Shown here piece after piece: positions 34,644 to 47,607 of a stretch of 64,000 nucleotides of DNA. The position numbers were made by a program, and so were the translations under genes. The DNA is taken from assembly GCF_000026545.1 (NCBI RefSeq), contig NC_011601.1. One strand, written 5' to 3'. The first letter of the stretch is position 1; every line of letters starts with the position of its first letter. The notes beneath the pieces are model-generated. The model was not told the DNA's origin. It saw only the letters and a program-made list of their open reading frames with translations, and did not search any database. The stretch comes from Escherichia coli O127:H6 str. E2348/69. Its GTDB lineage: Bacteria > Pseudomonadota > Gammaproteobacteria > Enterobacterales > Enterobacteriaceae.

Positions 34644-35786
34644 TCAAATCTGCTTTTCATACAATCGGTAACGCTTGTACGGCTCCGCCCCAATGCGTTC
34701 CAGCATGTTATTCATGCCTGTATTGGTTTCGAGGATCCATGACATTTCCAGCGCATCGATCTTCCGACGGGCAAACGGATCGCGTAAGGCTTCAATCAAT
34801 AACAGCGCAATTACCGGGCCGATGCGGCTGAACTGATACTCGTCCCGCACGCCCATCAGCGGTACTCGCGCAGTTCGCACACCGCTGACTTTCAAACGCC
34901 ACAGCAATTTTGCCCAGCCGAAGGGAAAGAGCGATCCGTTCAGATCGGCAATCGCCTCGTTGATGTTCGGCAAGCCGACAATAAACGCGCAGGGTGCAGA
35001 ATCAATCTCAGCGATGTAGATCATATCGTCCGGCACCAGATATTTAAGTTGATCGCCCATGGTCGCGAATTCATGTTCGGTAAACGGCACAAATCCCCAG
35101 TTGTGCTGCCAGCCAGAATTGAAAATCTCACGCAGGATCTGCATCTCTTCGGCAAACCGCTGGCGATTGATGCAGCGAATGGTCACCTTTTTGCGCACCT
35201 GATCCATCAGTTTTTTTAGCGCCGGAGAGAAAGTGAGATCGGTTCGCTGCATCCACCACGCCAGTAAATCAATGCCTTTGTGATAACCCAGTTGTTCAAT
35301 ATGCGCGGCATACCACGGTTTGCCGTGTGGCATCATCGCACAGGGCGGAGTGTCAAAACCTTCAATCAGTAATCCGCTTTCCTGATTGATATTCAGGCTG
35401 AAAGGCCCGCTGATCTTACTTGCACCTTGTGACTTTAACCACGCTTCCGCTGTACCAAACAACGCGGCAAAAACCTGCGGATCATCAATGGCGTCAATCA
35501 TGCCGAAATGACCGGTATCTTCACCGTAACGCTCACGGTGCAAGGTATCTATTTGCGCGGTAATACGCCCAACTATCTGCCCCGCTTTTTTTGCCACCCA
35601 CGCCTGCCAGATGATATGGTCCGTCCCCGGATTCTTCGCAGACAAATGCTCGTTGCGTTCAATGAATAAAGGGGGTATCCAGTTTGGATCGTCGGGATAA
35701 AGTGATGACGGAAAAGCGATAAATGCCTTAAGGTCATTTTTATTAATTACTTTTTCAATTTTAATCATCAGCAGATCGCATTCCAT
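34644..35786 (-). CDS. yghO: YghO, intact 380-aa putative N-acyltransferase
   Basis: Full-length ORF starting at ATG 35786, convergent with glcC and divergent from the lipid operon; the acyltransferase assignment is inferred, not from a visible motif. Confidence 0.55.
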   Translation of the reverse strand: MECDLLMIKIEKVINKNDLKAFIAFPSSLYPDDPNWIPPLFIERNEHLSAKNPGTDHIIWQAWVAKKAGQIVGRITAQIDTLHRERYGEDTGHFGMIDAIDDPQVFAALFGTAEAWLKSQGASKISGPFSLNINQESGLLIEGFDTPPCAMMPHGKPWYAAHIEQLGYHKGIDLLAWWMQRTDLTFSPALKKLMDQVRKKVTIRCINRQRFAEEMQILREIFNSGWQHNWGFVPFTEHEFATMGDQLKYLVPDDMIYIAEIDSAPCAFIVGLPNINEAIADLNGSLFPFGWAKLLWRLKVSGVRTARVPLMGVRDEYQFSRIGPVIALLLIEALRDPFARRKIDALEMSWILETNTGMNNMLERIGAEPYKRYRLYEKQI

Positions 35787-36147
35787 AGTTCTGTGGGTAA
35801 CAAATAATTAACGGTGACAAACAGGTTGCAACAGCAACGAACGGCACCTTAACAATCAACCCAATGAATACAAACGACGAATAAATAGTATTATTAATGA
35901 TTACGATAAGGTCAGAGACTACACAGAAGCGCCTCAATGCCTTTTGTCGATTTAAGGCGACCGGACAAGGCTTCTTCTTAATATATTCATAAATTAAATA
36001 TCATTCACAAAAAAACTCAAACTCATTATTTAAATCAATGTTCATTTTCACACTGATGAAAATACTATCTCATTTATCTTTTATGCCTATATAATCCACC
36101 GCATTATTGTCATTTTATTTTGGATATCCAATTTTTTCGTGGTGTAT

Positions 36148-37872
36148 ATGTCTAATAAAATCTTTACGCATTCCCTACCTATGCGCTATGCCGATTTTCC
36201 AACGCTGGTTGATGCTTTGGACTACGCCGCTCTGAGTAGCGCCGGAATGAATTTTTATGACAGACGTTGCCAACTTGAAGATCAACTGGAATATCAGACG
36301 TTAAAAGCGCGTGCCGAAGCTGGTGCGAAGCGGTTGTTATCGCTGAACCTGAAAAAAGGCGATCGCGTGGCGCTGATTGCCGAAACCAGTAGCGGGTTCG
36401 TAGAGGCTTTTTTTTCCTGCCAGTATGCCGGCTTAGTCGCCGTCCCGTTGGCGATTCCAATGGGCGTCGGTCAGCGGGATTCCTGGAGCGCCAAACTGCA
36501 GGGTTTACTGGCAAGTTGCCAGCCCGCAGCCATTATCACTGGTGATGAGTGGTTGCCACTGGTCAATGCCGCGACGCATAACAACAACCCCGAATTACAT
36601 GTTTTAAGCCACGCCTGGTTTAAGGCATTACCGGAAGCCGATGTTGCGCTCCAGCGTCCAGTTCCAAACGATATCGCCTACCTCCAGTACACCTCCGGCA
36701 GCACCCGTTTTCCCCGTGGCGTCATTATCACCCATCACGAAGTGATGGCTAATCTACGTGCTATAAGCCACGATGGCATTAAATTACGCCCTGGCGACCG
36801 CTGCGTCTCCTGGCTGCCTTTCTACCATGATATGGGACTGGTCGGCTTTCTCCTGACCCCCGTCGCCACGCAGCTTTCAGTAGATTATTTGCGCACTCAG
36901 GATTTTGCCATGCGTCCTCTGCAATGGCTTAAATTGATCAGTAAAAATCGCGGCACCGTTTCCGTTGCACCGCCGTTTGGCTATGAATTGTGCCAGCGCC
37001 GCGTGAATGAAAAAGATCTCGCTGAACTGGATCTTTCCTGCTGGCGCGTCGCTGGTATTGGAGCAGAACCGATCTCCGCAGAACAACTCCATCAATTCGC
37101 TGAATGTTTTCGTCAGGTTAACTTTGACGATAAAACTTTCATGCCGTGCTACGGACTGGCAGAAAATGCGCTGGCTGTCAGCTTCTCTGATGAAGCCTGC
37201 GGGGTTGTGGTTAACGAAGTGGATCGCGACATCCTCGAATACCAGGGTAAAGCCGTCGCGCCGGGTGCTGAAACACGCGCCGTATCGACTTTCGTCAACT
37301 GCGGTAAAGCGTTGCCGGAACATGGCATTGAAATCCGCAATGAAGCAGATATACCTGTCGCGGAACGTGTGGTAGGCCATATTTGCATCTCCGGCCCCAG
37401 CCTGATGAGCGGGTACTTTGGCGACCAGGTTTCGCAAGACGAGATTGCCGCGACGGGCTGGTTAGACACCGGCGACCTTGGTTATCTGCTGGACGGTTAT
37501 CTGTATGTCACCGGACGCATTAAAGATCTGATTATTATTCGTGGCCGTAATATCTGGCCGCAGGATATTGAATACATTGCGGAACAGGAACCGGAAATTC
37601 ATTCTGGCGATGCGATTGCTTTTGTTACCGCCCAGGAAAAAATCATTTTGCAGATCCAGTGTCGGATCAGCGACGAAGAACGTCGCGGGCAGCTTATCCA
37701 CGCGCTGGCAGCTCGGATCCAAAGCGAATTTGGCGTTACCGCGGATATCGATCTGTTGCCGCCCCACAGTATTCCCCGAACATCCTCCGGCAAGCCTGCC
37801 CGTGCGGAAGCGAAAAAACGTTATCAGAAGGCTTATGCTGCCAGTCTTCATGTGCAGGAATCCCTGGCATGA
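36148..37872 (+). CDS. Fatty-acyl-AMP ligase / acyl-ACP synthetase (adenylate-forming enzyme)
   Basis: AMP-binding signature YTSGSTRFPRGVIITHHE; 574 aa from ATG 36148; stop overlaps the next start (ATGA at 37869-37872). Confidence 0.75.
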   Translation: MSNKIFTHSLPMRYADFPTLVDALDYAALSSAGMNFYDRRCQLEDQLEYQTLKARAEAGAKRLLSLNLKKGDRVALIAETSSGFVEAFFSCQYAGLVAVPLAIPMGVGQRDSWSAKLQGLLASCQPAAIITGDEWLPLVNAATHNNNPELHVLSHAWFKALPEADVALQRPVPNDIAYLQYTSGSTRFPRGVIITHHEVMANLRAISHDGIKLRPGDRCVSWLPFYHDMGLVGFLLTPVATQLSVDYLRTQDFAMRPLQWLKLISKNRGTVSVAPPFGYELCQRRVNEKDLAELDLSCWRVAGIGAEPISAEQLHQFAECFRQVNFDDKTFMPCYGLAENALAVSFSDEACGVVVNEVDRDILEYQGKAVAPGAETRAVSTFVNCGKALPEHGIEIRNEADIPVAERVVGHICISGPSLMSGYFGDQVSQDEIAATGWLDTGDLGYLLDGYLYVTGRIKDLIIIRGRNIWPQDIEYIAEQEPEIHSGDAIAFVTAQEKIILQIQCRISDEERRGQLIHALAARIQSEFGVTADIDLLPPHSIPRTSSGKPARAEAKKRYQKAYAASLHVQESLA

Positions 37873-38783
37873 ATCAAACTGTCGCGGTGACGGGCGCTAC
37901 CGGGTTTATCGGTAAATATATTATTGATAACCTGCTCGCCCGCGGCTTTCACGTTCGCGCATTAACGCGTACTGCCCGCGCTCACGTCAATGATAATCTC
38001 ATCTGGGTGCGCGGTTCGCTGGAAGATACACATTCGCTTAGCGAACTGGTTGCCGGAGCCAGCGCGGTGGTCCATTGCGCCGGACAAGTGCGCGGACACA
38101 AAGAAGAGATTTTTACCCGCTGTAACGTTGACGGCAGCCTGCGCCTGATGCAAGCGGCAAAAGAGAGCGGCTTTTGCCAACGTTTTCTGTTTATCTCTTC
38201 GCTGGCGGCGCGCCATCCCGAACTCTCCTGGTACGCAAATTCCAAACACGTCGCCGAACAACGACTGATCGCAATGGCTGACGAAATTACGCTGGGCATT
38301 TTTCGCCCGACAGCCGTGTATGGTCCCGGCGATAAAGAGTTAAAACCGCTGTTTGACTGGATGCTGCGCGGCCTGCTGCCACGACTTGGTGCGCCAGATA
38401 CACAACTCTCTTTCCTGCACGTCACCGATTTTGCGCAAGCAGTGGGTCAGTGGTTAAACGCCGAAACTGTACAGACGCAAACCTATGAATTATGCGATGG
38501 CGTCGCTGGCGGCTATGACTGGCAACGCGTACGACAGCTTGCCGCCGAAGCCCGTTGTGGTTCTGTGCGGATGGTTGGCATTCCTCTGCCGCTACTCACC
38601 TGCCTTGCGGATATCAGTACTGCGTTGAGTCGCCTGGCAGGTAAAGAACCTATGCTGACCCGCTCGAAAATTCGTGAATTAACCCACGCCGACTGGTCGG
38701 CAAATAATAACCGTATTTCTGAAGATATTAATTGGTTTCCCGGGATTAGCCTGGAACACGCATTACGCAACGGGCTATTTTGA
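37869..38783 (+). CDS. NAD(P)-dependent epimerase/dehydratase-family (SDR) reductase
   Basis: Rossmann motif VAVTGATGFIGKY at the N-terminus; 304 aa; translationally coupled to the ligase. Confidence 0.75.
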   Translation: MNQTVAVTGATGFIGKYIIDNLLARGFHVRALTRTARAHVNDNLIWVRGSLEDTHSLSELVAGASAVVHCAGQVRGHKEEIFTRCNVDGSLRLMQAAKESGFCQRFLFISSLAARHPELSWYANSKHVAEQRLIAMADEITLGIFRPTAVYGPGDKELKPLFDWMLRGLLPRLGAPDTQLSFLHVTDFAQAVGQWLNAETVQTQTYELCDGVAGGYDWQRVRQLAAEARCGSVRMVGIPLPLLTCLADISTALSRLAGKEPMLTRSKIRELTHADWSANNNRISEDINWFPGISLEHALRNGLF

Positions 38784-38814
38784 TTGTCTTGTTTAAAGGT
38801 GTGTTAACGTTTCT

Positions 38815-39063
38815 ATGGTAAATCGTGAAATAGTAATGGATTACATCCTTTCCTGTTTACAGGATTTGGTCGAAAACGGTGTGGAAATTAAGCCCGACAG
38901 CGATCTCGTCAACGATCTTGGCCTGGAGTCGATCAAAGTGATGGATCTCTTAATGATGCTGGAAGACAGATTCGATATTTCCATTCCTATTAATATTCTG
39001 CTGGATGTCAAAACCCCTGCGCAATTAATGGAAACTCTACTTCCATGGCTGGAGAATAAATAA
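38815..39063 (+). CDS. Acyl carrier protein (dedicated ACP)
   Basis: 82 aa with phosphopantetheine-attachment motif DLGLESIKVMDL; stop overlaps the next start (TAATG). Confidence 0.75.
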   Translation: MVNREIVMDYILSCLQDLVENGVEIKPDSDLVNDLGLESIKVMDLLMMLEDRFDISIPINILLDVKTPAQLMETLLPWLENK

Positions 39064-40235
39064 TGGGGCTATACGATAAATATGCGCGCCTTGCTGGCGA
39101 GCGCCTGCAATTTAGTGATAACGGGTTAACACCATTTGGCACCTGTATTGATGAAGTATATTCCGCCACCGAAGGCCGGATCGGCAATAAAAAAGTGATT
39201 CTGGCCGGGACCAATAATTATCTCGGTTTAACCTTTAATCATGATGCTATCCGCGAAGGTCAGGCAGCGTTAGCGGCCCAAGGCACTGGCACCACCGGTT
39301 CTCGTATGGCAAACGGCAGTTATGCGCCGCATCTGGCGTTAGAGAAAGAGATTGCCGAGTTTTTCAATCGCCCTACCGCTATCGTTTTTTCAACCGGTTA
39401 TACAGCTAATTTAGGCGTCATCAGCGCACTTGCCGACCATAACGCCGTGGTGTTACTGGATGCCGACAGCCACGCCAGTATTTATGACGCCTGTTCTCTC
39501 GGCGGCGCAGAGATTATTCGTTTCCGCCATAATGACGTCAACGATCTGGAACGGCGCATGGTCCGCCTCGGTGAACGGGCGAAAGAGGCGATTATTATCG
39601 TTGAAGGCATCTACAGTATGCTCGGTGACGTTGCGCCGCTGGCAGAAATTGTTGATATCAAACGTCGTCTCGGTGGTTATTTGATTGTCGATGAAGCACA
39701 TTCGTTTGGCGTGTTAGGCGTAACAGGCCGCGGACTGGTTGAAGCCGTTGGCGTTGAAGACGACGTGGATATTATCGTCGGCACCTTCAGTAAAAGTTTG
39801 GCTTCCATTGGTGGTTTTGCCGTGGGTTCAGAAGCGATGGAAGTGCTGCGCTACGGCAGCCGCCCGTATATTTTTACCGCCTCTCCTTCTCCGTCCTGCA
39901 TTGCGACCGTGCGCTCGTCGTTAAGAACCATTGCCACACAACCAGAGTTGCGGCAAAAACTGATGGATAACGCCAACCATCTGTATGACGGTCTGCAAAA
40001 ACTGGGTTACGAGTTAAGTTCACATATTAGCCCGGTAGTGCCAGTAATAATCGGTTCGAAAGAGGAAGGTTTACGCATCTGGCGCGAGCTTATTTCGCTG
40101 GGCGTTTATGTGAATCTTATCCTGCCACCTGCCGCGCCTGCAGGCATCACGCTGCTGCGCTGTAGCGTAAACGCTGCCCACAGTCGTGAGCAAATCGATG
40201 CCATCATTCAGGCATTTGCTACTCTGAAGCAGTAA
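39063..40235 (+). CDS. Alpha-oxoamine synthase-family PLP enzyme (serine palmitoyltransferase / BioF / Kbl-like)
   Basis: 390 aa with PLP-lysine motif GTFSKSLASIGGF and a glycine-rich N-terminal region; 1-nt overlap with the ACP stop. Confidence 0.8.
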   Translation: MGLYDKYARLAGERLQFSDNGLTPFGTCIDEVYSATEGRIGNKKVILAGTNNYLGLTFNHDAIREGQAALAAQGTGTTGSRMANGSYAPHLALEKEIAEFFNRPTAIVFSTGYTANLGVISALADHNAVVLLDADSHASIYDACSLGGAEIIRFRHNDVNDLERRMVRLGERAKEAIIIVEGIYSMLGDVAPLAEIVDIKRRLGGYLIVDEAHSFGVLGVTGRGLVEAVGVEDDVDIIVGTFSKSLASIGGFAVGSEAMEVLRYGSRPYIFTASPSPSCIATVRSSLRTIATQPELRQKLMDNANHLYDGLQKLGYELSSHISPVVPVIIGSKEEGLRIWRELISLGVYVNLILPPAAPAGITLLRCSVNAAHSREQIDAIIQAFATLKQ

Positions 40236-40240
40236 TGTGA

Positions 40241-40269
40241 ACCCGCCGTGGTGTTGCGCCACGGCGGGT
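40241..40269. terminator. Bidirectional hairpin terminator between convergent operons
   Basis: 11-bp perfect stem ACCCGCCGTGG / CCACGGCGGGT with a 7-nt loop, directly after the oxoamine synthase stop and abutting the LptG-like stop. Confidence 0.55.
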
Positions 40270-41349
40270 TTAATGTTGTCTGTCATGCCAATACACCAGG
40301 CTCAACGCCACCAGCACAAACGCTACCGGTAAACCGAGCGCGGTAACAGGTGCGCTCAACGCAAATAGCAATCCCAGATTGACCATGATTTGATAGCTGA
40401 TCCAGGTGAGTAAACCAACGATGACCCCTACAGCGAGACGGCTACCCATCCTAGGCGAGCGCGGGGCACTAAAGGTAAACGGCACAGCCAGCAAAATCAT
40501 CGCCAGAGTCAAGATGGGTTGCCCCAGTTTTTCCCACAGTGCAAGGCGGTATTCGCTGCTGGGTTGCCCGGTTTCCTGCAAATAATGGATGTAATGATTA
40601 AGCTGACGGACAGAAAAAGTATTTCCCGGCATCGATAACTCTTCAAGATTCATACTGGTGAAGGTCGATTGCCAGGCAAGATAATCAGATGTTTCCTGCG
40701 TTTCTTTGCCATTCAGCCATTTTTTATGATTCACACCATGCAGGATCCACGTTTTGTCATCTTCAATGGTGGCACTGCGCGCATAAATGTAGGATTCGAG
40801 CGAGAGATCATCGCGGTAATGAAATATCTCCACGTCCACCGGCTGGCCCTGCTCGTTCAGCGATTTCACCGTCACAAATTCATTACCACGCCTGGCCCAC
40901 AGCATATTGCCGGTAATGTCATCGTCCTCCCCCAACGCAGTGGCAGTCGATTTGATTTGCAGCGCCTGTTGCTGCAATGGCGACGCCACCCACTCATCTA
41001 TCGCGCCTAATGAAACAGTCCACAATATCCCGGCAACCAGCGCCACCAGTGCAATACGGAAGATAGAAAACCCCGTGCTGCGAATGGCGGTAAGCTCACT
41101 GTTTTTCGATAACTGCCCCAGGCCGACAATCCCTCCCAATAAGGCGATAAACGGCGAAAGTTCGACCAGTGTGCGCGGTAAGGTCATCAGCACCACCAGC
41201 ACCGCCTGAGTCCAGCGATAACCACCCGGGCTGACATCATCCAGTTCGTTAATCAGGTTGAAGGTGGTAAAAAGCGGCAGCAATAGCCCTGCGGCGGCGG
41301 CAAAACCGAGAAAGAGATGACGGATTAAATAGCGACTGAAAACATTCAT
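40270..41349 (-). CDS. LptG-like permease (YjgP/YjgQ family)
   Basis: About 359 aa from ATG 41349 (ATGA overlap with upstream gene); N-terminus MNVFSRYLIRHLFLGF resembles LptF/LptG-type permeases. Confidence 0.65.
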   Translation of the reverse strand: MNVFSRYLIRHLFLGFAAAAGLLLPLFTTFNLINELDDVSPGGYRWTQAVLVVLMTLPRTLVELSPFIALLGGIVGLGQLSKNSELTAIRSTGFSIFRIALVALVAGILWTVSLGAIDEWVASPLQQQALQIKSTATALGEDDDITGNMLWARRGNEFVTVKSLNEQGQPVDVEIFHYRDDLSLESYIYARSATIEDDKTWILHGVNHKKWLNGKETQETSDYLAWQSTFTSMNLEELSMPGNTFSVRQLNHYIHYLQETGQPSSEYRLALWEKLGQPILTLAMILLAVPFTFSAPRSPRMGSRLAVGVIVGLLTWISYQIMVNLGLLFALSAPVTALGLPVAFVLVALSLVYWHDRQH

Positions 41350-42416
41350 CGGGAAAATTTCTGCAGCAAAGAGAAGTCGCGTGCGACCAACATCAGCAGG
41401 CCCATTAGCATGAGTCCGGGTACTAACCACAAACCAGGAATGAGGGGAATCGCGCCGTTAGCCACCAGCGTACGGCAGACGTCGCCGCCATAAAAAATGG
41501 CAACAAACAGCAACGTCAGTGGCAATAACGTTGAAAATCGCCCTTGCCGCGGTTTTACCCGACTTAATGAAATGGCCAGCAGCGCCATCAACAATGCTGT
41601 CAGGCCACGGCTTTGTCGCCATTGCAGTTCGGCATGATCGGCAGGAAAGGCGGAGCGCGCCAGCTCCGTGACCGATTTTGCTTTGCGTTTGACGTTAGGG
41701 CTTTGATCCAGCGGATTCAGATGTAATTGCAGATTACGGTAGATCTGTTCGTTGTCGTCACGCCCCTGATGATCGAGAAGATAGGCGGTCCCGTTATGCA
41801 ACATAACGGTCGGTTTCTCAGGTGATGGGTCAACCACATCAACCGAACGGGCGCGGAAAATGCGGGTTCGATTAGCAGTAGAAGTATAAATCAGCGCGTC
41901 AGTCAGGCGATTATTATCCTGATCAACCGTCTGCGAAAGGATCATTCGTCCGTTATCGTTAGTGTTAAATTGCTTTGCCCGCAACTGGCGAACATCCAGC
42001 TCCGACTGTGACTGTTGCTCCAGTTGATAAATCTGCGCATAAGCCCACGGACGACCATACATCGACAGAAGGGTGACAAAAATACTTAGCGGTATCGCCA
42101 GATAAAGAACGGCTTTGTACAAGCGTCCCGGACTGCCCCCCGCCGCAGAGATAGCGGTAATTTCCGAGTCGGTATACATCTGCCCTAGCGTCACGCCAAC
42201 TGACACATACAGTCCAACAGGTAACAACATCTCCAGTGCAATCAGCACTTTGTAGAAAACGATATCCAGCACAACATCAAGAGCTAATGTCCCATTTGCC
42301 GCTTCGGTCAGATAACGCTGTGCGGAGTAGCTGGCGAAAATAAAGATCAGAAAACCGACGATAATCAGCACCAGACGGCGCGTACCACGCATGATGTAGT
42401 GTTCAACCAGCTTCAT
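41346..42416 (-). CDS. LptF-like permease (YjgP/YjgQ family)
   Basis: 356 aa, MKLVEHYIMRGTRRLVLIIVGFLIF...; paired with the LptG-like gene. Confidence 0.65.
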   Translation of the reverse strand: MKLVEHYIMRGTRRLVLIIVGFLIFIFASYSAQRYLTEAANGTLALDVVLDIVFYKVLIALEMLLPVGLYVSVGVTLGQMYTDSEITAISAAGGSPGRLYKAVLYLAIPLSIFVTLLSMYGRPWAYAQIYQLEQQSQSELDVRQLRAKQFNTNDNGRMILSQTVDQDNNRLTDALIYTSTANRTRIFRARSVDVVDPSPEKPTVMLHNGTAYLLDHQGRDDNEQIYRNLQLHLNPLDQSPNVKRKAKSVTELARSAFPADHAELQWRQSRGLTALLMALLAISLSRVKPRQGRFSTLLPLTLLFVAIFYGGDVCRTLVANGAIPLIPGLWLVPGLMLMGLLMLVARDFSLLQKFSR

Positions 42417-42445
42417 CTCACTAACGCCCTCAATCCTTTGAATTT

Positions 42446-43009
42446 TTATTCATTGATCAGCTTCTGCGCCAGCGCAATGACATGATCTACCTCTTCCGGC
42501 GTCAGGCTGCCGTCCTTTGCCCACTGAATTTGCCCGGTTTTATTCAGCACCAGAATGGTTGAACTCTGCTCCTGCAAGTGCCAGGCAACGCGTCCCTGTC
42601 CATTGCCGTCAATAACGAATTGCGCCCATGGATAGCGGCGTTTATTTTTTTCGATTTTGCCAACGACAAAATAGCCGGTACCAAAGATGGCATCATCAGT
42701 GTTCACAATGGTGGTGGGCTGAAAACGATCCTGCGGAAAGTTTGCCGCTTCAACTGCTTTAATTAACAGTGAGTTCTTTTTCTTCGCCGACTTACGCCCG
42801 GCGATATACTGAATAATGCGAACTTTTCCTGCCAATTGGGTGCTGTTCCACTTTTGGTAGTGAATTTCGTCGTCGCTATTCCGAAGCAGCTCGCCGCCTT
42901 CCTGGATATAAACGGGGGTAACCGTTTTGCCAGTGACGAAATTGTGTGCCTGCACACCCGGGGCTAAGAGCATGATAATCAGCGCAATAATCAAACGAGA
43001 TGACATCAT
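42446..43009 (-). CDS. YtfJ-like periplasmic protein
   Basis: 187 aa with a signal peptide; conserved stretches (TTIVNTDDAI, QWAKDGSLTPEEV) closely resemble E. coli YtfJ as recalled from memory. Confidence 0.55.
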   Translation of the reverse strand: MMSSRLIIALIIMLLAPGVQAHNFVTGKTVTPVYIQEGGELLRNSDDEIHYQKWNSTQLAGKVRIIQYIAGRKSAKKKNSLLIKAVEAANFPQDRFQPTTIVNTDDAIFGTGYFVVGKIEKNKRRYPWAQFVIDGNGQGRVAWHLQEQSSTILVLNKTGQIQWAKDGSLTPEEVDHVIALAQKLINE

Positions 43010-43017
43010 TGCTCCGG

Positions 43018-43842
43018 TTATAGCGGAAAACGCGAAATCAGCAGTTCTAAGCGCTGGCGAATATCGCTATCCAGCGCCATCGGTGCATCATACGACTGGC
43101 GGTTTTCCATATCATCCGCCACCATGTCGTCGTGTTTATCCCCCATCAGGCCATTAATGGCGGCGAGGAAGCGGGAAATCTGTAACGCCTCTTTATTTTC
43201 AGGATCAAGCGATCTTAAGGTGTCGTAATAAGAAACCTGCTGGCTGATGATTTTTCGCACATCATGAAATTCCCTGCCAGTTAGTTGCGGTTTAGCAATA
43301 ATCTCTTTCAGGATGTACATTTGCTTCTGGCGGTAGGCGATAAAACCGTTCACGGTTTCTAACTGGCTATGGCGCAATGAATAGTTCACCAGCCACCAGA
43401 CAGGGGAGCTCAAATAAACACGTAACAGGTTACCGTAAAACGACACAATATTTTTCTTACCGTTACGAAAGCCATCCTGAAAATGCCCAAGAAAAACGGT
43501 CGTTTTGCCGAATAAAAATCCAGCCTGATGCTTCTTTAAATACAGCCGTTGCGCAAAACGCAGATGCTTGTAGCGCGCTCGCATGTATTTAAACTGTTTG
43601 CGCTCGTCTGTCGTCAGCTCATCGCCTTTCGCCTGTTTGCGGATTAAACGCAGTAACTCCTGACGATTAACACCATCCAGCCAGAATTTCAGGCATAACG
43701 CGTAATTATCATGGATGATTTCGGTGGTACAACTTAGTGCGATAGTCGGCGGCAAACTGACCTGTGCATCAACAACATCATCTTCTTCAATCGCAACAAA
43801 TAGACGCTCGCTCGCCTCAAGCGGGAAATATTTTCTCATCAT
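43018..43842 (-). CDS. Hypothetical protein (274 aa)
   Basis: ORF in operon context between yghQ and the YtfJ-like gene; no motif recognised by eye. Confidence 0.5.
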   Translation of the reverse strand: MMRKYFPLEASERLFVAIEEDDVVDAQVSLPPTIALSCTTEIIHDNYALCLKFWLDGVNRQELLRLIRKQAKGDELTTDERKQFKYMRARYKHLRFAQRLYLKKHQAGFLFGKTTVFLGHFQDGFRNGKKNIVSFYGNLLRVYLSSPVWWLVNYSLRHSQLETVNGFIAYRQKQMYILKEIIAKPQLTGREFHDVRKIISQQVSYYDTLRSLDPENKEALQISRFLAAINGLMGDKHDDMVADDMENRQSYDAPMALDSDIRQRLELLISRFPL

Positions 43843-45191
43843 CAGGATTTCTCTCCGGTTGAGTTATAAAGCAAGGAATGGCGCTGAAAAAATGCCTTTA
43901 AGGTCGGAATTAGCGAGAGCACCACATCCAGACATTGCCCACCGAAGTAAGCAAATGCAGCCCCCAGCACGCCAAACAGATGACAGAACATGAACAGCAA
44001 TACGATGTAGCCGATTGAGGCGATGGTTTGCGCCACGAGAAAAGCGCGCTGTTTTCCCGCCATCAATAGCAATGACTCCTGTGGGAAGCCCAGCATCGAA
44101 ATCACAATTGCGCCCAGCATCACCTGAATCAGGTCATACGCTTCGAGATACTTAACGCCAAACACCAGCGAAATGAGCGGCTTGCCGACGATCAACACCG
44201 CGAGCGCCACCAGAATACCGATTCCGCCCGCCAGTAAACCGGACTTCACGCCTAACAACCACGGTCTGGTGGTGCGTGGATCTAAACGCATCACCTCTGG
44301 ATAAAAACTTTTGCCCAGTAAACCCGCTGGCGTTCCGGCGGCATCGAAGAATGTCATGGCGATTTTAAATAACCCGACAGCAGCGGGTCCTAACACGATC
44401 CCCACCAACACTGTGCTGCACGAGTTACGCGCCGACCAGATGGAGTGGGCAATGTTGGTTGACCAGACAAAACTCCACGCGCCTTTAATGTGTCGGGCAG
44501 ACTCAAACAGATTCAATTTGAAGGCGTTATGGATATTTCTGCGGCGTAATTCGCGCGCGGCAAACCACCAGTACATGGTGCCGCCAACCAGATTCGACAC
44601 GTACCAGGCAATAACAAAACCCGCAAAACCAAAGTCAAAATACCAGGCTACGACGCTCCCCGCTGCGCGCAGAAAAGGTTTCGTCGCCTGCTGTACAGCA
44701 ATCAAATCAAAGCGATCTACCGCACGCAGAATGCCGGTCGGCGTGGAGGAAGCCATTGAAGGAATGAGCGTGCAATAGAGCGCCGCCAGCCAAAAGCTTT
44801 GGTCATCCAGACCTAATGAATGGGAAAGGAATGGCAGTAAGGCAATGCCGCCGACAATCGCCACCGCGCCGCTGACGATATCCAGCGAGAAGGAAAATGA
44901 GACAACATTGCGAAATTGCTGCGGATTATTGTTGGTCAAGGCCGGCGTTCCGTACTGGACCACCAGTTGCCATGTCTGAAACTTAATAAAATCGCTGATC
45001 GATTTGGCGTACGATTGCACAATTACCAGTACGCCAAACATGGCGGGCGTCATCCCTTTACCGGCACACGAGAGCGCCAACAGCCCCAGCAAAGCGCTCA
45101 CAACATTACTGGAGCCTAACCAGGCGCTATTGCGAATAATGGTGCGAAACGCGCCATCTGCAAACCAATGTTTGATGTTTAAACCCGCCAA
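43842..45191 (-). CDS. yghQ: YghQ, MOP-superfamily (Wzx/MurJ-like) polytopic flippase
   Basis: 449-aa multi-TM protein directly downstream of yghR; longer than my recollection of the K-12 product. Confidence 0.7.
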   Translation of the reverse strand: MAGLNIKHWFADGAFRTIIRNSAWLGSSNVVSALLGLLALSCAGKGMTPAMFGVLVIVQSYAKSISDFIKFQTWQLVVQYGTPALTNNNPQQFRNVVSFSFSLDIVSGAVAIVGGIALLPFLSHSLGLDDQSFWLAALYCTLIPSMASSTPTGILRAVDRFDLIAVQQATKPFLRAAGSVVAWYFDFGFAGFVIAWYVSNLVGGTMYWWFAARELRRRNIHNAFKLNLFESARHIKGAWSFVWSTNIAHSIWSARNSCSTVLVGIVLGPAAVGLFKIAMTFFDAAGTPAGLLGKSFYPEVMRLDPRTTRPWLLGVKSGLLAGGIGILVALAVLIVGKPLISLVFGVKYLEAYDLIQVMLGAIVISMLGFPQESLLLMAGKQRAFLVAQTIASIGYIVLLFMFCHLFGVLGAAFAYFGGQCLDVVLSLIPTLKAFFQRHSLLYNSTGEKS

Positions 45192-45236: not shown

Positions 45237-45995
45237 TTAAGTTAAACTTCGGCGGTCAGAAACGATGGCAACCAGAGAAACCGCCTTCTGTGCCTGTTCC
45301 AGCACCTCGCTGTAAGGCGCTCTGGAATCAATCTCAAGAATTTTTGTGCCGTTATAGCCAATCGTCGACATGACGCCGATTTTGTCCTGCAGCTCGGCAT
45401 AGTCATGGTCAGGCTTGCGGGAGATGGCAGTATCAATATCAATCCCCAAGCGAATGATTAATTCAGGACGGTATTGCGCCATTTGTTGGTATAAGCGCCG
45501 TTCGCGCTGCGCCAGAAACATGCTGATTTTCCCGGTCGCACGTTCGACGCCGATCCCCGGTCCGTCATAATAAAAGCCCGAAATTTCAGCCTGCGGGAAG
45601 CGATCGCTGACCACCAGAACGCCACTTTGCGCCAGTCGCTGAACCTTGCGCAGATTCGCCATTCTTCGCAGCGAGAAGCAGTACATAATCACCGCCGCCC
45701 ATAGCGCCGGAGATTTGGTTTTCATGCTTTGGGTTTTCGAGGATTTGGCCGCCAGTCGCCGTTCCAGCCAGACGCCAACCAACGGCAACCGTTTGATTTT
45801 GTCGCCGTCTTCGCCTGAGAGCAGCCCCAGATAGCGGCGCTCGGTTTGCCAGTGTTGTTGCAGCGATTTCACCAGGTCAGTGGTCAGTGTGGATTTACCG
45901 GTGCCATCACACCCGACCACCGCAATCAGCCCCGGAATGTAGTTGGGCTGCGGCGCGGTTGTACTCTTAACAGTTTGTGTTTGTAGTGCATCCAT
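45237..45995 (-). CDS. yghR: YghR, P-loop kinase-like protein (thymidylate-kinase-like fold)
   Basis: Walker A VGCDGTGKSTL plus DRF/Y motif (VVSDRFPQ). Confidence 0.75.
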   Translation of the reverse strand: MDALQTQTVKSTTAPQPNYIPGLIAVVGCDGTGKSTLTTDLVKSLQQHWQTERRYLGLLSGEDGDKIKRLPLVGVWLERRLAAKSSKTQSMKTKSPALWAAVIMYCFSLRRMANLRKVQRLAQSGVLVVSDRFPQAEISGFYYDGPGIGVERATGKISMFLAQRERRLYQQMAQYRPELIIRLGIDIDTAISRKPDHDYAELQDKIGVMSTIGYNGTKILEIDSRAPYSEVLEQAQKAVSLVAIVSDRRSLT

Positions 45996-46026
45996 TCGTT
46001 AAATCATCCCCTATCCATTTTGGTGA

Positions 46027-46740
46027 TCAGGAAAGCGCGGCGTGAATTGCGCGTAGTGACGCTTGCAGAATTTCATCGGCTGGTTGCCGACCATCCAGTT
46101 CAAGGATCTTTGCGCCATTGAATGTCAGTTGCGGCGTAACGGCGATTTTTTCCTGTAACGCTGCCAGTTGGTGGTCAGGTTTACGCGCAAACGCGGTTTG
46201 TTCATCAATGCCAAGACGAATCAACAATACGGGCAAATAAGACGCCATCCATTGGTACAGCTTCAGCTCGCGCTGCCTTAACATTTTTATCCAACCGTTA
46301 CCGCCCGTGGTTTTTGCCAATTGCGGGCCATCAAAGCGAAAACCCGGCACTTCAACCTGCGGGTAGCGGTCGGTGATGAGCAGATAGCCTTGCTGGCTTT
46401 TACACAACATTTTGCGAAACTTGTACGCCCGCCAGCAGGAAAGCAGATAGATAACCAGCGCAGTAATATTGCCAGGCGGTGTTAAGGGCTTTTCGTGCAC
46501 ATGTGCCGCTTTACTTCGCAAATAACGCCCAAAAGGTGCGCCAATAACAGGGAGCTGTGAAATCCATTCGCCAATTCGCCCGGACGATTGCCCGAGATAA
46601 ATGTGTTCTGTTGGCATTCTTGATGCCAGTTCATTTACCAGGCTTGCCGTGAGGGTCGATTTACCTGAACCATCACATCCTACAATGGCAATAACACGCA
46701 CTGGCGTGGAATTAATTATTGACATATTACGTTGATTCAC
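46027..46740 (-). CDS. yghS: YghS, P-loop kinase-like protein, paralog of YghR/YghT
   Basis: Walker A VGCDGSGKSTL plus LITDRYPQ. Confidence 0.75.
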   Translation of the reverse strand: MNQRNMSIINSTPVRVIAIVGCDGSGKSTLTASLVNELASRMPTEHIYLGQSSGRIGEWISQLPVIGAPFGRYLRSKAAHVHEKPLTPPGNITALVIYLLSCWRAYKFRKMLCKSQQGYLLITDRYPQVEVPGFRFDGPQLAKTTGGNGWIKMLRQRELKLYQWMASYLPVLLIRLGIDEQTAFARKPDHQLAALQEKIAVTPQLTFNGAKILELDGRQPADEILQASLRAIHAALS

Positions 46741-46914
46741 GAAAAACCCGGCAGCAAATAATGTATTGAATATTACGTGGTCCGTGCTCAGAATATCCGT
46801 TCAACCTTATTGTGACAATGGTTAATTGTGACATTGACCTGAATTACGCTTTCATCAAAAACATATTAACCAAATAAATATTTTGGATGGACATTTAAAT
46901 TTAAGGATATATTC

Positions 46915-47607
46915 ATGCAGTCAATAATACCTCCATTAATTGCCGTTATTGGTAGCGATGGTTCAGGCAAGTCAACGGTGTGTGAACATCTTATTACCGT
47001 TGTCGAAAAATATGGTGCTGCCGAAAGGGTTCATTTAGGAAAACAGGCCGGAAATGTCGGTCGTGCAGTGACAAAATTACCGTTGATGGGAAAATCCTTA
47101 CATAAAACAATTGAACGAAATCAGGTAAAAATAGCAAAAAAATTGCCGGGACCAGTTCCGGCGCTGGTAATTACAGCGTTTGTCGCCCGCCGCTTACTGC
47201 GCTTTCGTCATATGCTTGCCTGTCGTCGTCGCGGGTTAATTGTTTTAACCGACCGTTATCCGCAGGAACAGATTCCTGGCGCTTATGATGGTACGGTGTT
47301 CCCGCCTAACGTTGAAGGTGGTCGTTTTGTCTCATGGCTGGCAAGTCAGGAACGTAAAGCATTTCACTGGATGGCGAGCCATAAGCCCGATCTGGTCATC
47401 AAACTCAATGTCGATCTGGACGTAGCCTGCGCGCGTAAGCCTGACCACAAAAGAGAATCGCTGGAAAGGAAGATAGCAATAACGCCACAGTTAACCTTTG
47501 GAGGCGCGCAACTGGTTGATATCGATGCCAATCAACCGCTGGAACAAGTGCTGGTTGATGCGGAAAAAGCGATTACGGATTTTATGACCGCGCGTGGTTA
47601 TCACTAG
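46915..47607 (+). CDS. yghT: YghT, P-loop kinase-like protein, paralog of YghR/YghS
   Basis: Walker [12 protein letters not shown] plus LTDRYPQ; ATG with an AAGGA ribosome-binding site upstream. Confidence 0.75.

What the first reader, a model, noticed from the sequence alone, without database searches (positions are those of the whole stretch)
40270..45191. Orphan LptF/LptG-like permease pair with a YtfJ-like periplasmic protein, an unknown protein and the Wzx-like YghQ: a possible dedicated lipid export module
Convergent with the lipid operon is a minus-strand operon (yghS-yghR-yghQ-hypothetical-YtfJ-like-LptF-like-LptG-like). LptF/LptG normally work with the LptB ABC ATPase in LPS extraction, but no ABC ATPase gene with a signature motif is visible in the cluster. 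Together with a MOP-family flippase and a periplasmic YtfJ homolog, this looks like a second, specialised envelope-lipid transport system rather than housekeeping Lpt.
Basis: inference. Interest (0 to 1): 0.7.

Follow-up and report, generated by a model that had tools for sequence, protein, structure and literature searches.

The report
Sphingolipid-locus LptF2/LptG2 lipid exporter
These genes are a second copy of the machine that pulls lipopolysaccharide out of the inner membrane, here tied to a sphingolipid-synthesis operon and most likely exporting that lipid; the idea was published for Caulobacter in 2024-2026, so it is correct but not new.

Summary
The window is E. coli E2348/69. At 40270-45191 (minus strand) lie lptG2, lptF2, a YtfJ paralogue, a 274-aa unannotated protein and full-length yghQ, preceded by yghR and yghS. 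They converge on aasR-cerR-acpR-spt. No ABC ATPase, LptC or LptA gene occurs anywhere in the 64-kb window.

The interpretation, a specialised lipid exporter rather than housekeeping Lpt, is supported:
- Linkage: all 80 genome loci carrying LptF2 relatives have an adjacent LptG2, and 68 carry ceramide-synthesis genes within 10 kb.
- Motor docking: the LptB-docking glutamates are invariant.
- Substrate site: LptG's lipid A phosphate-binding lysines (K34, K40, K41) are replaced by N/D/D.
- Selection and spread: the genes are under purifying selection (dN/dS 0.05-0.2) and travel with the lipid operon in about 75% of complete E. coli genomes. K-12 lost them to an IS5-associated deletion.

It is already known. 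PLoS Pathog 2024 named LptF2/LptG2 in Caulobacter. A 2026 bioRxiv preprint showed they are needed when anionic sphingolipid is made, that they bind the single LptB, and it draws the E. coli UTI89 locus.

What I did not find in the papers I read is the Enterobacterales-only trio: MOP flippase YghQ, a CHAD-like helical protein, and a cysteine-free thioredoxin-fold YtfJ paralogue. Their roles are unknown.

The parts
40238..40272 (.). 16-bp G+C-rich hairpin between the convergent stop codons of spt (40235) and lptG2 (40270). Probably a shared bidirectional terminator.
   Evidence: 16 pairs, 10 G-C; sequence
40270..41349 (-). lptG2: LptG-type permease paralogue, 359 aa, 3+3 TM segments around a periplasmic domain of about 170 residues. 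Predicted sphingolipid extractor subunit.
   Evidence: (28% identity to K-12 LptG)
41346..42416 (-). lptF2: LptF-type permease paralogue, 356 aa. Its stop overlaps the lptG2 start (ATGA).
   Evidence: (30% identity to K-12 LptF over 268 aa)
42446..43006 (-). YtfJ-family paralogue, 186 aa. It has an N-terminal signal-like segment, a thioredoxin/TlpA-like fold and no cysteine. It is 54% identical to housekeeping YtfJ (b4216). Role unknown.
43018..43842 (-). 274-aa soluble all-alpha protein (old name Ybl138) with no Pfam or NCBIfam family. The fold is CHAD-like, and its structural relatives come mostly from sphingolipid-producing alphaproteobacteria. Role unknown.
43842..45191 (-). Full-length yghQ, 449 aa: MOP/Wzx-type (Polysacc_synt) membrane protein and candidate inner-membrane flippase. 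It is 3'-truncated in K-12.
   Evidence: analogous CC_1166 in Caulobacter
45237..45995 (-). yghR: soluble P-loop kinase-like protein, paralogue of YghS and YghT.
46027..46740 (-). yghS: soluble P-loop kinase-like protein and first gene of the operon. A promoter-like site lies at 46818-46790.
46915..47607 (+). yghT: third P-loop kinase-like paralogue, transcribed divergently from yghS.
36148..40235 (+). aasR (36148-37872), cerR (37869-38783), acpR (38815-39063), spt (39063-40235): the 3-oxo-sphinganine and dihydroceramide synthesis operon that supplies the presumed cargo.
   Evidence: PMC9386255
34644..35786 (-). yghO: homologue of the bacterial ceramide synthase / N-acyltransferase (Caulobacter CC_1154).
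   Evidence: PMC9386255; co-occurrence

Best explanation
lptF2 and lptG2 encode the transmembrane half of a second Lpt-type ABC lipid extractor, dedicated to the ceramide-based lipid made by the neighbouring yghO and aasR-cerR-acpR-spt genes.

Proposed path:
1. The lipid is made on the cytoplasmic face of the inner membrane.
2. It is flipped to the periplasmic leaflet, most likely by the MOP-family protein YghQ.
3. It enters the LptF2-LptG2 cavity sideways.
4. It is squeezed out towards the outer membrane by ATP hydrolysis in the housekeeping LptB dimer. LptB docks on the conserved coupling helices, which is why the cluster has no ATPase gene of its own.
5. Onward transport probably uses the ordinary LptC/A/D/E bridge.

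What is shown here: gene content, family membership, absence of an ATPase gene, conserved coupling helices, an altered substrate site, linkage to ceramide genes, and purifying selection.

What is shown only in Caulobacter: dependence on sphingolipid synthesis, the F2-G2 complex, and binding to LptB.

What is inferred: the cargo in E. coli, YghQ as flippase, and use of the Lpt bridge.

The YtfJ paralogue, the CHAD-like protein and YghR/S/T are Enterobacterales-type accessories, perhaps for head-group chemistry or periplasmic hand-off. Their roles are open.
For: Family and architecture:
- Full-length homology to solved LptF and LptG chains.
- NCBIfam scores above the curated cut-offs.
- 3+3 TM layout in LptG2.

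Not a recent duplicate:
- Only 30% and 28% identity to E. coli's own LptF and LptG.
- The housekeeping pair sits elsewhere, in 5424 of 5426 genomes.

Linkage (a metagenome example):
- Of 80 genome loci with LptF2 relatives (32-97% identity; Enterobacterales, Pseudomonas, Azotobacter, Nitrosomonas/Nitrosospira, Nitrospirales, Desulfobacteraceae, Acidobacteriota), 80 have an adjacent LptG2.
- 68 have at least one of YghO, AasR, CerR, AcpR or Spt in the DNA held.
- 4 of the 12 exceptions are cut contigs of close relatives.

Motor:
- No LptB-like gene occurs in the window or in any of the loci; the only ABC matches in the loci are about 30% identical.
- The equivalents of the coupling-helix glutamates LptF E84 and LptG E88 (PMC5082905) are kept in 81/81 and 79/80 family members.

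Substrate site (contacts from PMC6744409; comparison):
- LptG K34, K40, K41 and R133 become N31, D37, D38 and L130.
- Family-wide, these positions are D/N, D/E, D/E and mostly hydrophobic (L/I/F/V in at least 63 of 80, Q in 11).
- K34E is lethal for LPS transport.

Flippase slot: next to spt, this position is filled by YghQ-like MOP proteins in Enterobacterales and in two uncultured gammaproteobacterial loci (L080, L081). In 14 of the Pseudomonas and Azotobacter loci, tblastn finds an ABC ATPase domain just beyond spt. In the one such locus with called genes (metagenome L004) it is an MsbA-like half-transporter.

Selection: dN/dS is 0.05-0.11 for lptG2 and lptF2, similar to spt.

Literature:
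- LptF2/G2/C2 and the flippase candidate CC_1166 were proposed in PMC11324152.
- Deletions are possible only without spt or cpgB, F2-G2 and LptB co-purify, and the E. coli UTI89 locus is drawn, in bioRxiv 10.64898/2026.04.12.717747.
Against: - I found no paper showing that E. coli makes or exports a sphingolipid from this locus. Only the AasR/AcpR/Spt enzymes of BL21 were assayed.
- The key functional paper is an unreviewed preprint on a distant alphaproteobacterium.
- I could not obtain the Caulobacter sequences, so orthology to CCNA_01213/01214 was not tested directly (one search found nothing).
- There is no LptC2 here, and how the lipid leaves LptF2G2 is unknown.
- Eight distant LptF2-like loci show no ceramide genes within reach. 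They may be ordinary LptFG, so the clade boundary is not sharp, and the NJ tree is poorly resolved.
- Truncated LptF2 variants exist in some lineages, for example Shigella boydii.
Confidence: 0.75

Rival explanations
1. The pair is a back-up or alternative extractor for LPS or a modified LPS form, as its database name ('LPS export ABC transporter permease') says.
For: NCBIfam equivalog models score above their cut-offs. The RefSeq name agrees. Several cavity residues are kept: the hydrophobic ones, plus the basic ones LptF R33 and K317 and LptG K62 and R136.
Against: - Charge reversal at LptG K34, K40 and K41; K34E is lethal for LPS transport.
- The inner-core contacts are lost.
- The clade is tied to spt and yghO, not to LPS genes.
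- The pair is dispensable: it is absent from K-12 and from about 25% of genomes.
- In Caulobacter the need for the pair depends on sphingolipid synthesis.
Confidence: 0.06
2. The minus-strand operon exports some other envelope glycolipid or polymer handled by the Wzx-like YghQ, and its position next to the sphingolipid operon is incidental.
For: MOP/Polysacc_synt proteins usually flip undecaprenyl-linked glycans (established knowledge). The YghQ, CHAD-like and YtfJ trio is confined to Enterobacterales. In some genera the gene order is rearranged relative to spt.
Against: - No glycosyltransferase or polymerase gene lies in the operon.
- LptF2/G2 stay linked to ceramide genes in taxa that lack the trio.
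- The two operons are gained and lost together in E. coli.
- YghQ-like genes sit beside spt in the uncultured gammaproteobacterial loci L080 and L081.
Confidence: 0.08
3. The cluster is a silent or decaying remnant with no current function in E. coli.
For: It was lost from K-12 by an IS5-associated deletion without obvious cost. An IS insertion occurs in spt in at least one strain (H17). Truncated or fused LptF2 variants are on record. I found no published E. coli phenotype.
Against: All genes are intact in E2348/69, Nissle and a bovine strain, with dN/dS 0.04-0.2. The cluster is present in about 75% of complete genomes. It is conserved at 55-76% protein identity across many enterobacterial genera.
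Confidence: 0.05
4. LptF2G2 is driven by something other than LptB, for instance the co-transcribed P-loop proteins YghR/YghS, or it works without ATP.
For: Three P-loop proteins are encoded in or beside the operon. YghR-like genes recur in some Pseudomonas-type loci.
Against: YghR/S/T are kinase-like and have no ABC signature. The LptB-type coupling helices are conserved. Many LptF2G2 loci lack YghR-like genes within reach. Caulobacter LptF2/G2 bind LptB.
Confidence: 0.03

Closest known systems
Caulobacter crescentus LptF2/LptG2 (CCNA_01214/CCNA_01213 = CC_1156/CC_1155), sphingolipid-locus paralogues of LptFG (PMC11324152; bioRxiv 10.64898/2026.04.12.717747)
   Same: - An adjacent LptF-like and LptG-like gene pair inside a sphingolipid locus.
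- A housekeeping lptFG pair elsewhere in the genome.
- No lptB copy in the locus.
- A Polysacc_synt-type flippase candidate in the same locus (CC_1166 there, YghQ here).
- The preprint itself draws the E. coli UTI89 locus as homologous.
   Different: - No LptC2 in E. coli.
- The head-group genes differ. E. coli has no CpgA/B/C, Tam41-like or nucleotidyltransferase genes. Instead it has YghR/S/T P-loop kinases, a CHAD-like protein and a YtfJ paralogue.
- Nothing has been tested experimentally in E. coli.
Housekeeping LptB2FGC lipopolysaccharide extractor of E. coli (PDB 6MHU, 6MI7, 6S8N)
   Same: Same fold and topology over the full length. The coupling-helix Glu and Gly are conserved. Several cavity residues are kept: the hydrophobic ones, plus LptF R33 and K317 and LptG K62 and R136.
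   Different: - 28-30% identity.
- LptG K34, K40, K41 and R133 are replaced by N, D, D and L, and the core-oligosaccharide contacts are lost.
- LptG2 is acidic (pI 5.8 against 9.5).
- It is not essential, is absent from K-12, and has no dedicated LptB or LptC.
Pseudomonas/Azotobacter-type sphingolipid loci (e.g. L031-L056, metagenome L004)
   Same: LptF2-LptG2 (50-62% identity) lie next to yghO-like and aasR-cerR-acpR-spt genes. Some loci carry a YghR-like kinase.
   Different: An ABC ATPase domain beside spt takes the place of YghQ; in the one locus with called genes (L004) it is an MsbA-like half-transporter. L004 also carries DAGK_cat (CpgB-like) and NTP_transf_3 genes. There is no YtfJ paralogue or CHAD-like protein within 10 kb.

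Membership tests
LptF/LptG permease family (Pfam PF03739; TIGR04407/TIGR04408) | Profile match over the full length, above the curated cut-off | tested here: met
   LptF2 scores 320.5 bits (cut-off 230) and LptG2 304.8 (cut-off 240). Both align end to end with solved LptF and LptG chains.
LptF/LptG permease family (Pfam PF03739; TIGR04407/TIGR04408) | Six TM helices with a periplasmic domain between TM3 and TM4 | tested here: met
   A hydropathy scan gives 3+3 segments in LptG2 with a gap at residues 107-274. LptF2 gives 3+2 at the threshold used. No 3-D model of the pair was made here.
LptF/LptG permease family (Pfam PF03739; TIGR04407/TIGR04408) | Coupling helix with the conserved glutamate that docks in the LptB groove (LptF E84, LptG E88) | tested here: met
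   E85 in LptF2 and E85 in LptG2. Family-wide the Glu is kept in 81/81 and 79/80 members, and the terminal Gly is invariant (PMC5082905).
LPS-exporting LptFG in the strict (equivalog) sense | Basic residues that bind the lipid A phosphates and the inner core (LptG K34, K40, K41, R133, R136, K62; LptF R33, K317, K322, R263) | tested here: not met
   LptG K34, K40, K41 and R133 become N, D, D and L. LptF K322 and R263 become N and H. Kept: LptG R59 and K133, LptF R34 and R315 (PMC6744409).
LPS-exporting LptFG in the strict (equivalog) sense | Essential and universal in the species | tested here: not met
   The second pair is present in 4103 of 5426 genomes and absent from K-12. The housekeeping pair is in 5424 of 5426.
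Sphingolipid-locus LptF2/LptG2 (Uchendu, Isom & Klein 2026; Olea-Ozuna et al. 2024) | Encoded within or next to the spt/bCerS/cerR locus, in addition to a housekeeping lptFG | tested here: met
   lptG2 ends 34 nt from spt. The housekeeping pair is at pepA-lptFG. The linkage is general across 68 of 80 loci.
Sphingolipid-locus LptF2/LptG2 (Uchendu, Isom & Klein 2026; Olea-Ozuna et al. 2024) | No dedicated lptB; the single housekeeping LptB is used | tested here: inconclusive
   Absence of an ATPase gene is shown. Use of LptB in E. coli cannot be tested here; it is shown only for Caulobacter.
Sphingolipid-locus LptF2/LptG2 (Uchendu, Isom & Klein 2026; Olea-Ozuna et al. 2024) | Closer in sequence to Caulobacter CCNA_01214/01213 than to housekeeping LptFG | not tested
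   The Caulobacter sequences were not obtainable; a scan for the cpgB primer gave no hit. The preprint's Fig. 2B colours the E. coli UTI89 genes as homologues.
Sphingolipid-locus LptF2/LptG2 (Uchendu, Isom & Klein 2026; Olea-Ozuna et al. 2024) | Deletion tolerated only when the anionic sphingolipid is not made | not testable with these tools
   This is a genetic experiment.
MOP (Wzx/MurJ-type) flippases | Polysacc_synt profile and a polytopic membrane protein | tested here: met
   PF01943 at E 4e-9 and PF13440 at 7e-8. At least 6 strongly hydrophobic segments in a crude scan. The NCBIfam MOP equivalog is far below its cut-off (33 bits against 273), so this is a family-level call only.
YtfJ family (TIGR01626 / PF09695) | Profile match, secreted, thioredoxin-like fold | tested here: met
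   212.5 bits against a cut-off of 151. 54% identity to K-12 YtfJ. N-terminal hydrophobic segment. Foldseek gives probability 1.0 to TlpA/ResA/peroxiredoxin-type chains.
Thiol-disulfide oxidoreductases / peroxiredoxins | Catalytic cysteine(s) | tested here: not met
   The 186-aa protein has no cysteine.
CHAD domain (polyphosphate-binding helical domain, Pfam PF05235) | Sequence profile match | tested here: not met
   No Pfam hit. hhalign of the family alignment against E. coli YgiF gives probability 0.3%.
CHAD domain (polyphosphate-binding helical domain, Pfam PF05235) | CHAD fold | tested here: inconclusive
   The model has pLDDT 94. The best PDB match is the Ricinus CHAD domain 6qv5, but with E 0.16 and TM 0.49. 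AFDB relatives at 26-42% identity and TM above 0.9 are labelled CHAD domain-containing.

The most novel reading that the evidence does not exclude
Enterobacterales may run a variant sphingolipid pathway whose distinctive parts have not been described. The candidates are a cysteine-free thioredoxin-fold YtfJ paralogue acting in the periplasm with LptF2G2 (for example as the acceptor or hand-off factor in place of LptC2), and a cytoplasmic CHAD-like protein working with the three YghR/S/T P-loop kinases to build a new phosphorylated head group.

A corollary is that the uncharacterised housekeeping YtfJ could itself be an accessory of Lpt-type lipid transport.

The CHAD-like family also appears in Sphingomonas, Zymomonas and Acetobacteraceae, so it might be a widespread, overlooked sphingolipid factor.
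Probability: 0.2. Interest if true: 0.6.

Novelty: already known. Interest (0 to 1): 0.3.

Why it matters
About three quarters of complete E. coli genomes, including EPEC, UPEC, Nissle and BL21 but not K-12, carry a full sphingolipid synthesis-plus-export locus. That implies a surface lipid which the standard laboratory model cannot make. Such a lipid could affect outer-membrane barrier function, polymyxin and bile sensitivity, and host signalling.

Sharing LptB between two extractors also matters for antibiotics aimed at the Lpt machine. The central idea is already published for Caulobacter, and the E. coli locus has been drawn in that work. The value left is in testing it in E. coli and in the undescribed accessory genes.

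Tried and rejected
An 8-sequence alignment worked.
- The NJ tree of 133 LptF-like sequences was star-like. It showed only that LptF2 does not group with K-12 LptF.
- I asked whether YghR/S/T correspond to the Caulobacter ceramide kinase CpgB. They do not: CpgB is DAG-kinase-like and YghR/S/T are P-loop proteins.
- I asked whether the 274-aa protein corresponds to Caulobacter CC_1161. It does not: CC_1161 is Tam41-like.
- An HMM of the 274-aa family found no homologue in the Pseudomonas, Nitrosomonas or other loci, even at E up to 10.
- The profile search for distant relatives of the 274-aa protein listed only Enterobacterales among the best 120. The genomic context of its alphaproteobacterial relatives therefore remains unknown.
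- PADLOC gave only P-loop noise, so a defence-system reading was dropped.
- Rfam gave nothing across 34-48 kb.
- PDB sequence searches for the YtfJ paralogue, the 274-aa protein and YghR gave nothing.
- An exact scan of metagenomes for the published cpgB primer, meant to fetch a Caulobacter locus, gave no hit.
- The dN/dS values for aasR involving E2348/69 are invalid because an indel misaligns the codons.

Full report
**What is there**

The window is the E. coli E2348/69 chromosome (100% identity to NZ_CP059840.2). Between glcC/yghO and pitB lie two convergent gene sets.

On the plus strand:
- aasR, 36148-37872
- cerR, 37869-38783
- acpR, 38815-39063
- spt, 39063-40235

yghO lies upstream and divergent, at 34644-35786.

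On the minus strand, tightly packed (gaps of 1-45 nt or overlaps):
- yghS, 46027-46740
- yghR, 45237-45995
- yghQ, 43842-45191
- a 274-aa hypothetical protein, 43018-43842
- a YtfJ-family protein, 42446-43006
- lptF-like, 41346-42416
- lptG-like, 40270-41349

The lptG-like gene starts at the ATG that overlaps the lptF-like stop (ATGA), not at the upstream GTG of the mechanical ORF list. A 16-bp G+C-rich hairpin at 40238-40272 sits between the two convergent stop codons. A promoter-like site lies upstream of yghS.

**Family calls**

- NCBIfam scores exceed the curated cut-offs for LptG (305 bits against 240), LptF (320 against 230) and YtfJ (212 against 151).
- YghQ matches the MOP/Wzx Pfam families.
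- The 274-aa protein matches nothing in NCBIfam, Pfam, PADLOC or the PDB by sequence.

**No ATPase**

- A six-frame scan of all 64 kb found no ORF with both a Walker A motif and an ABC signature. The P-loops belong to YghR/S/T and the secretion ATPase GspE, plus one further ORF at 61475-62404 that I did not identify.
- tblastn with K-12 LptB, LptC, LptA and MlaF found nothing in the window.

**Not a duplicated housekeeping set**

- LptF2 is 30% identical to K-12 LptF over 268 residues, and LptG2 is 28% identical to LptG.
- LptF2 scores higher against Vibrio and Pseudomonas LptF than against E. coli LptF.
- The housekeeping pair sits at pepA-lptFG and is present in 5424 of 5426 complete E. coli genomes.
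- The second pair is present in 4103 genomes.

**Linkage to sphingolipid synthesis**

The plus-strand operon and yghO are the E. coli versions of the five dihydroceramide genes. AasR, AcpR and Spt of BL21 have been characterised biochemically (PMC9386255).

A scan of one genome per species returned 80 loci encoding LptF2 relatives at 32-97% identity. The taxa include many enterobacterial genera, Pseudomonas, Azotobacter, Nitrosomonas/Nitrosospira, Methylothermaceae, Nitrospirales, Desulfobacteraceae and Acidobacteriota.
- All 80 have an LptG2-like gene directly downstream.
- 68 have at least one of YghO, AasR, CerR, AcpR or Spt within the DNA held.
- Of the 12 exceptions, 4 are cut contigs of close relatives and 8 are the most distant hits, which may be ordinary LptFG.
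- A metagenome locus with a 55%-identical LptF2 shows the same association.

Within E. coli, the lipid operon (4067 genomes), the transport segment (4103) and the whole 11.7 kb (4056) are present together. K-12 strains lack everything from aasR to the 3' end of yghQ; an IS5 element sits in its place.

**How it probably works**

The coupling helices that dock LptFG into LptB are conserved.
- The glutamates equivalent to LptF E84 and LptG E88 are needed for LptB binding and LPS release (PMC5082905).
- They are kept in 81/81 LptF2-type and 79/80 LptG2-type sequences, and the glycine at the end of the helix is invariant.

The substrate site differs (contacts listed in PMC6744409; comparison).
- LptG K34, K40, K41 and R133 become N31, D37, D38 and L130 in E2348/69.
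- Family-wide these positions are D/N, D/E (75 of 80), D/E (76 of 80) and mostly hydrophobic (L/I/F/V in at least 63 of 80, Q in 11).
- The core-oligosaccharide contacts LptF K322, R263 and Q248 are also lost.
- LptF R33 and K317 and LptG K62 and R136 are kept as R or K.
- K34E is lethal for LPS transport, so LptG2 is unlikely to handle LPS.
- LptG2 is acidic overall (pI 5.8 against 9.5).

This fits a smaller cargo with a different charge pattern and an unchanged motor interface.

Purifying selection is clear. dN/dS among E2348/69, Nissle and a bovine strain is 0.05-0.11 for lptG2 and lptF2, 0.05-0.07 for yghQ, 0.10 for the 274-aa gene and 0.13-0.21 for the YtfJ paralogue. spt gives 0.04-0.07.

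**Comparison with the literature**

- Olea-Ozuna et al. (PLoS Pathog 2024, PMC11324152) named CC_1168, CC_1156 and CC_1155 as LptC2, LptF2 and LptG2. They proposed the Polysacc_synt protein CC_1166 as the flippase for phosphosphingolipids.
- Uchendu, Isom and Klein (bioRxiv 10.64898/2026.04.12.717747, April 2026) reported four things:
  - The three Caulobacter genes can be deleted only when spt or cpgB is absent.
  - LptF2 and LptG2 co-purify with each other and with the single LptB.
  - lptF2/lptG2 occur in many sphingolipid loci of alpha- and gammaproteobacteria, whereas lptC2 appears restricted to Caulobacter.
  - Their Figure 2B draws the E. coli UTI89 locus.

'Orphan' should be read as 'shares LptB'.

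**The accessory genes**

I did not find these described in the papers I read.

- Distribution:
  - The trio YghQ + 274-aa protein + YtfJ paralogue occurs together in 30 of the 80 loci, all Enterobacterales.
  - 14 of the Pseudomonas and Azotobacter loci have an ABC ATPase domain beside spt. In the one such locus with called genes (metagenome L004) it is an MsbA-like half-transporter.
  - Two uncultured gammaproteobacterial loci have a distant YghQ-like gene beside spt.
  - The flippase position therefore seems to be filled by different families.
- YtfJ paralogue:
  - It is 54% identical to housekeeping YtfJ.
  - It has an N-terminal signal-like segment and no cysteine.
  - Its model (pLDDT 85) has a TlpA/ResA/peroxiredoxin-type thioredoxin fold.
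  - It is periplasmic and cannot do thiol redox chemistry.
- 274-aa protein:
  - It models as an all-alpha bundle at pLDDT 94.
  - The best PDB match is a CHAD domain, but only weakly (6qv5, E 0.16, TM 0.49).
  - Sequence profiles do not support CHAD membership.
  - AFDB relatives at 26-42% identity and TM above 0.9 are labelled CHAD domain-containing. They come from Sphingomonas, Zymomonas, Acetobacter, Gluconobacter, Komagataeibacter, Commensalibacter and Pseudomonas veronii. From general knowledge these are mostly sphingolipid producers.
  - I could not obtain their genomic context.
- YghR/S/T: these are soluble P-loop kinase-like paralogues. They are unrelated to the DAG-kinase-like ceramide kinase CpgB. 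YghR-like genes recur in some Pseudomonas-type loci.

**Verdict**

The novelty of the central claim is nil since 2024-2026. The open points are whether E. coli makes and exports the lipid, what its head group is, and what the three accessory proteins do.

Noticed in passing
window 34644-45191 compared with K-12 (L008): In K-12-type genomes an IS5 element sits between yghO and a 3'-truncated yghQ, and aasR through the 274-aa gene are missing. The K-12 'yghQ' is a remnant, and K-12 cannot make or export this lipid.
   Followed up: yes
window 42898-43800 (5' end of the YtfJ paralogue gene and the 274-aa gene): The E2348/69 locus is a recombination mosaic. It is almost identical to Nissle over 43198-44400, but shows 33 differences per 300 nt at 42898-43198. 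Against a bovine strain the pattern is reversed. No other complete genome is 99% or more identical over lptG2 to the 274-aa gene, whereas 109 other genomes are over the lipid operon.
   Followed up: partly
proteins P0014-P0018 and P0001-P0013: Some E. coli assemblies carry LptF2 fused to a PitB (PHO4) domain; one such variant is seen on 34 contigs, including a 4.63-Mb genome. This suggests a second, independent deletion that removes the YtfJ paralogue through yghT. Singleton YtfJ-LptF2 fusions look like frameshift or assembly errors. Truncated LptF2 of 238-243 aa occurs in Shigella boydii and in a 471-member cluster.
   Followed up: no
window 46741-46914 (yghS-yghT intergenic region): An A+T-rich divergent promoter region carries a tandem repeat of TTGTGACA (ATTGTGACAATGGTTAATTGTGACATT). 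This could be an operator for an unknown regulator of the kinase and transport operon. A similar GGTGACAAAC lies in the yghO-aasR intergenic region.
   Followed up: no
window 45237-47607: Three paralogous P-loop kinase-like genes (yghR, yghS, yghT) are named 'dTMP kinase' in RefSeq, although they score far below the dTMP kinase cut-off (25-31 bits against 83). This is a probable misannotation. They co-occur with the sphingolipid locus in Enterobacterales and in some Pseudomonas.
   Followed up: partly
AFDB matches to the model of window 43018-43842: Relatives of the 274-aa protein labelled 'CHAD domain-containing' cluster in Sphingomonas, Zymomonas, Acetobacteraceae and Pseudomonas veronii. 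These taxa are mostly known or predicted to make sphingolipids. This protein family may be an unrecognised sphingolipid-associated factor.
   Followed up: partly
L004 and L031-L056 (Pseudomonas/Azotobacter-type loci): These loci combine LptF2G2 with an ABC ATPase domain beside spt. In the one locus with called genes (L004) this is an MsbA-like ABC half-transporter, alongside a DAGK_cat (CpgB-like) kinase and an NTP_transf_3 gene. That is a Caulobacter-like head-group set with a different flippase candidate.
   Followed up: partly
window 1-8000: The left end of the window holds the 3' part of lifA/efa1 (lymphostatin), followed by a pile of IS256, IS66, IS3 and IS481 elements, several of them degraded. 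The type II secretion gsp operon and sslE follow. This is a virulence-island edge unrelated to the finding.
   Followed up: no
window 36139-36148: The mechanical ORF for aasR starts at GTG 36139, whereas RefSeq uses ATG 36148. Other strains annotate different starts (Nissle and the bovine strain differ by about 30 nt). E2348/69 also has an internal 3-nt length difference in aasR.
   Followed up: no
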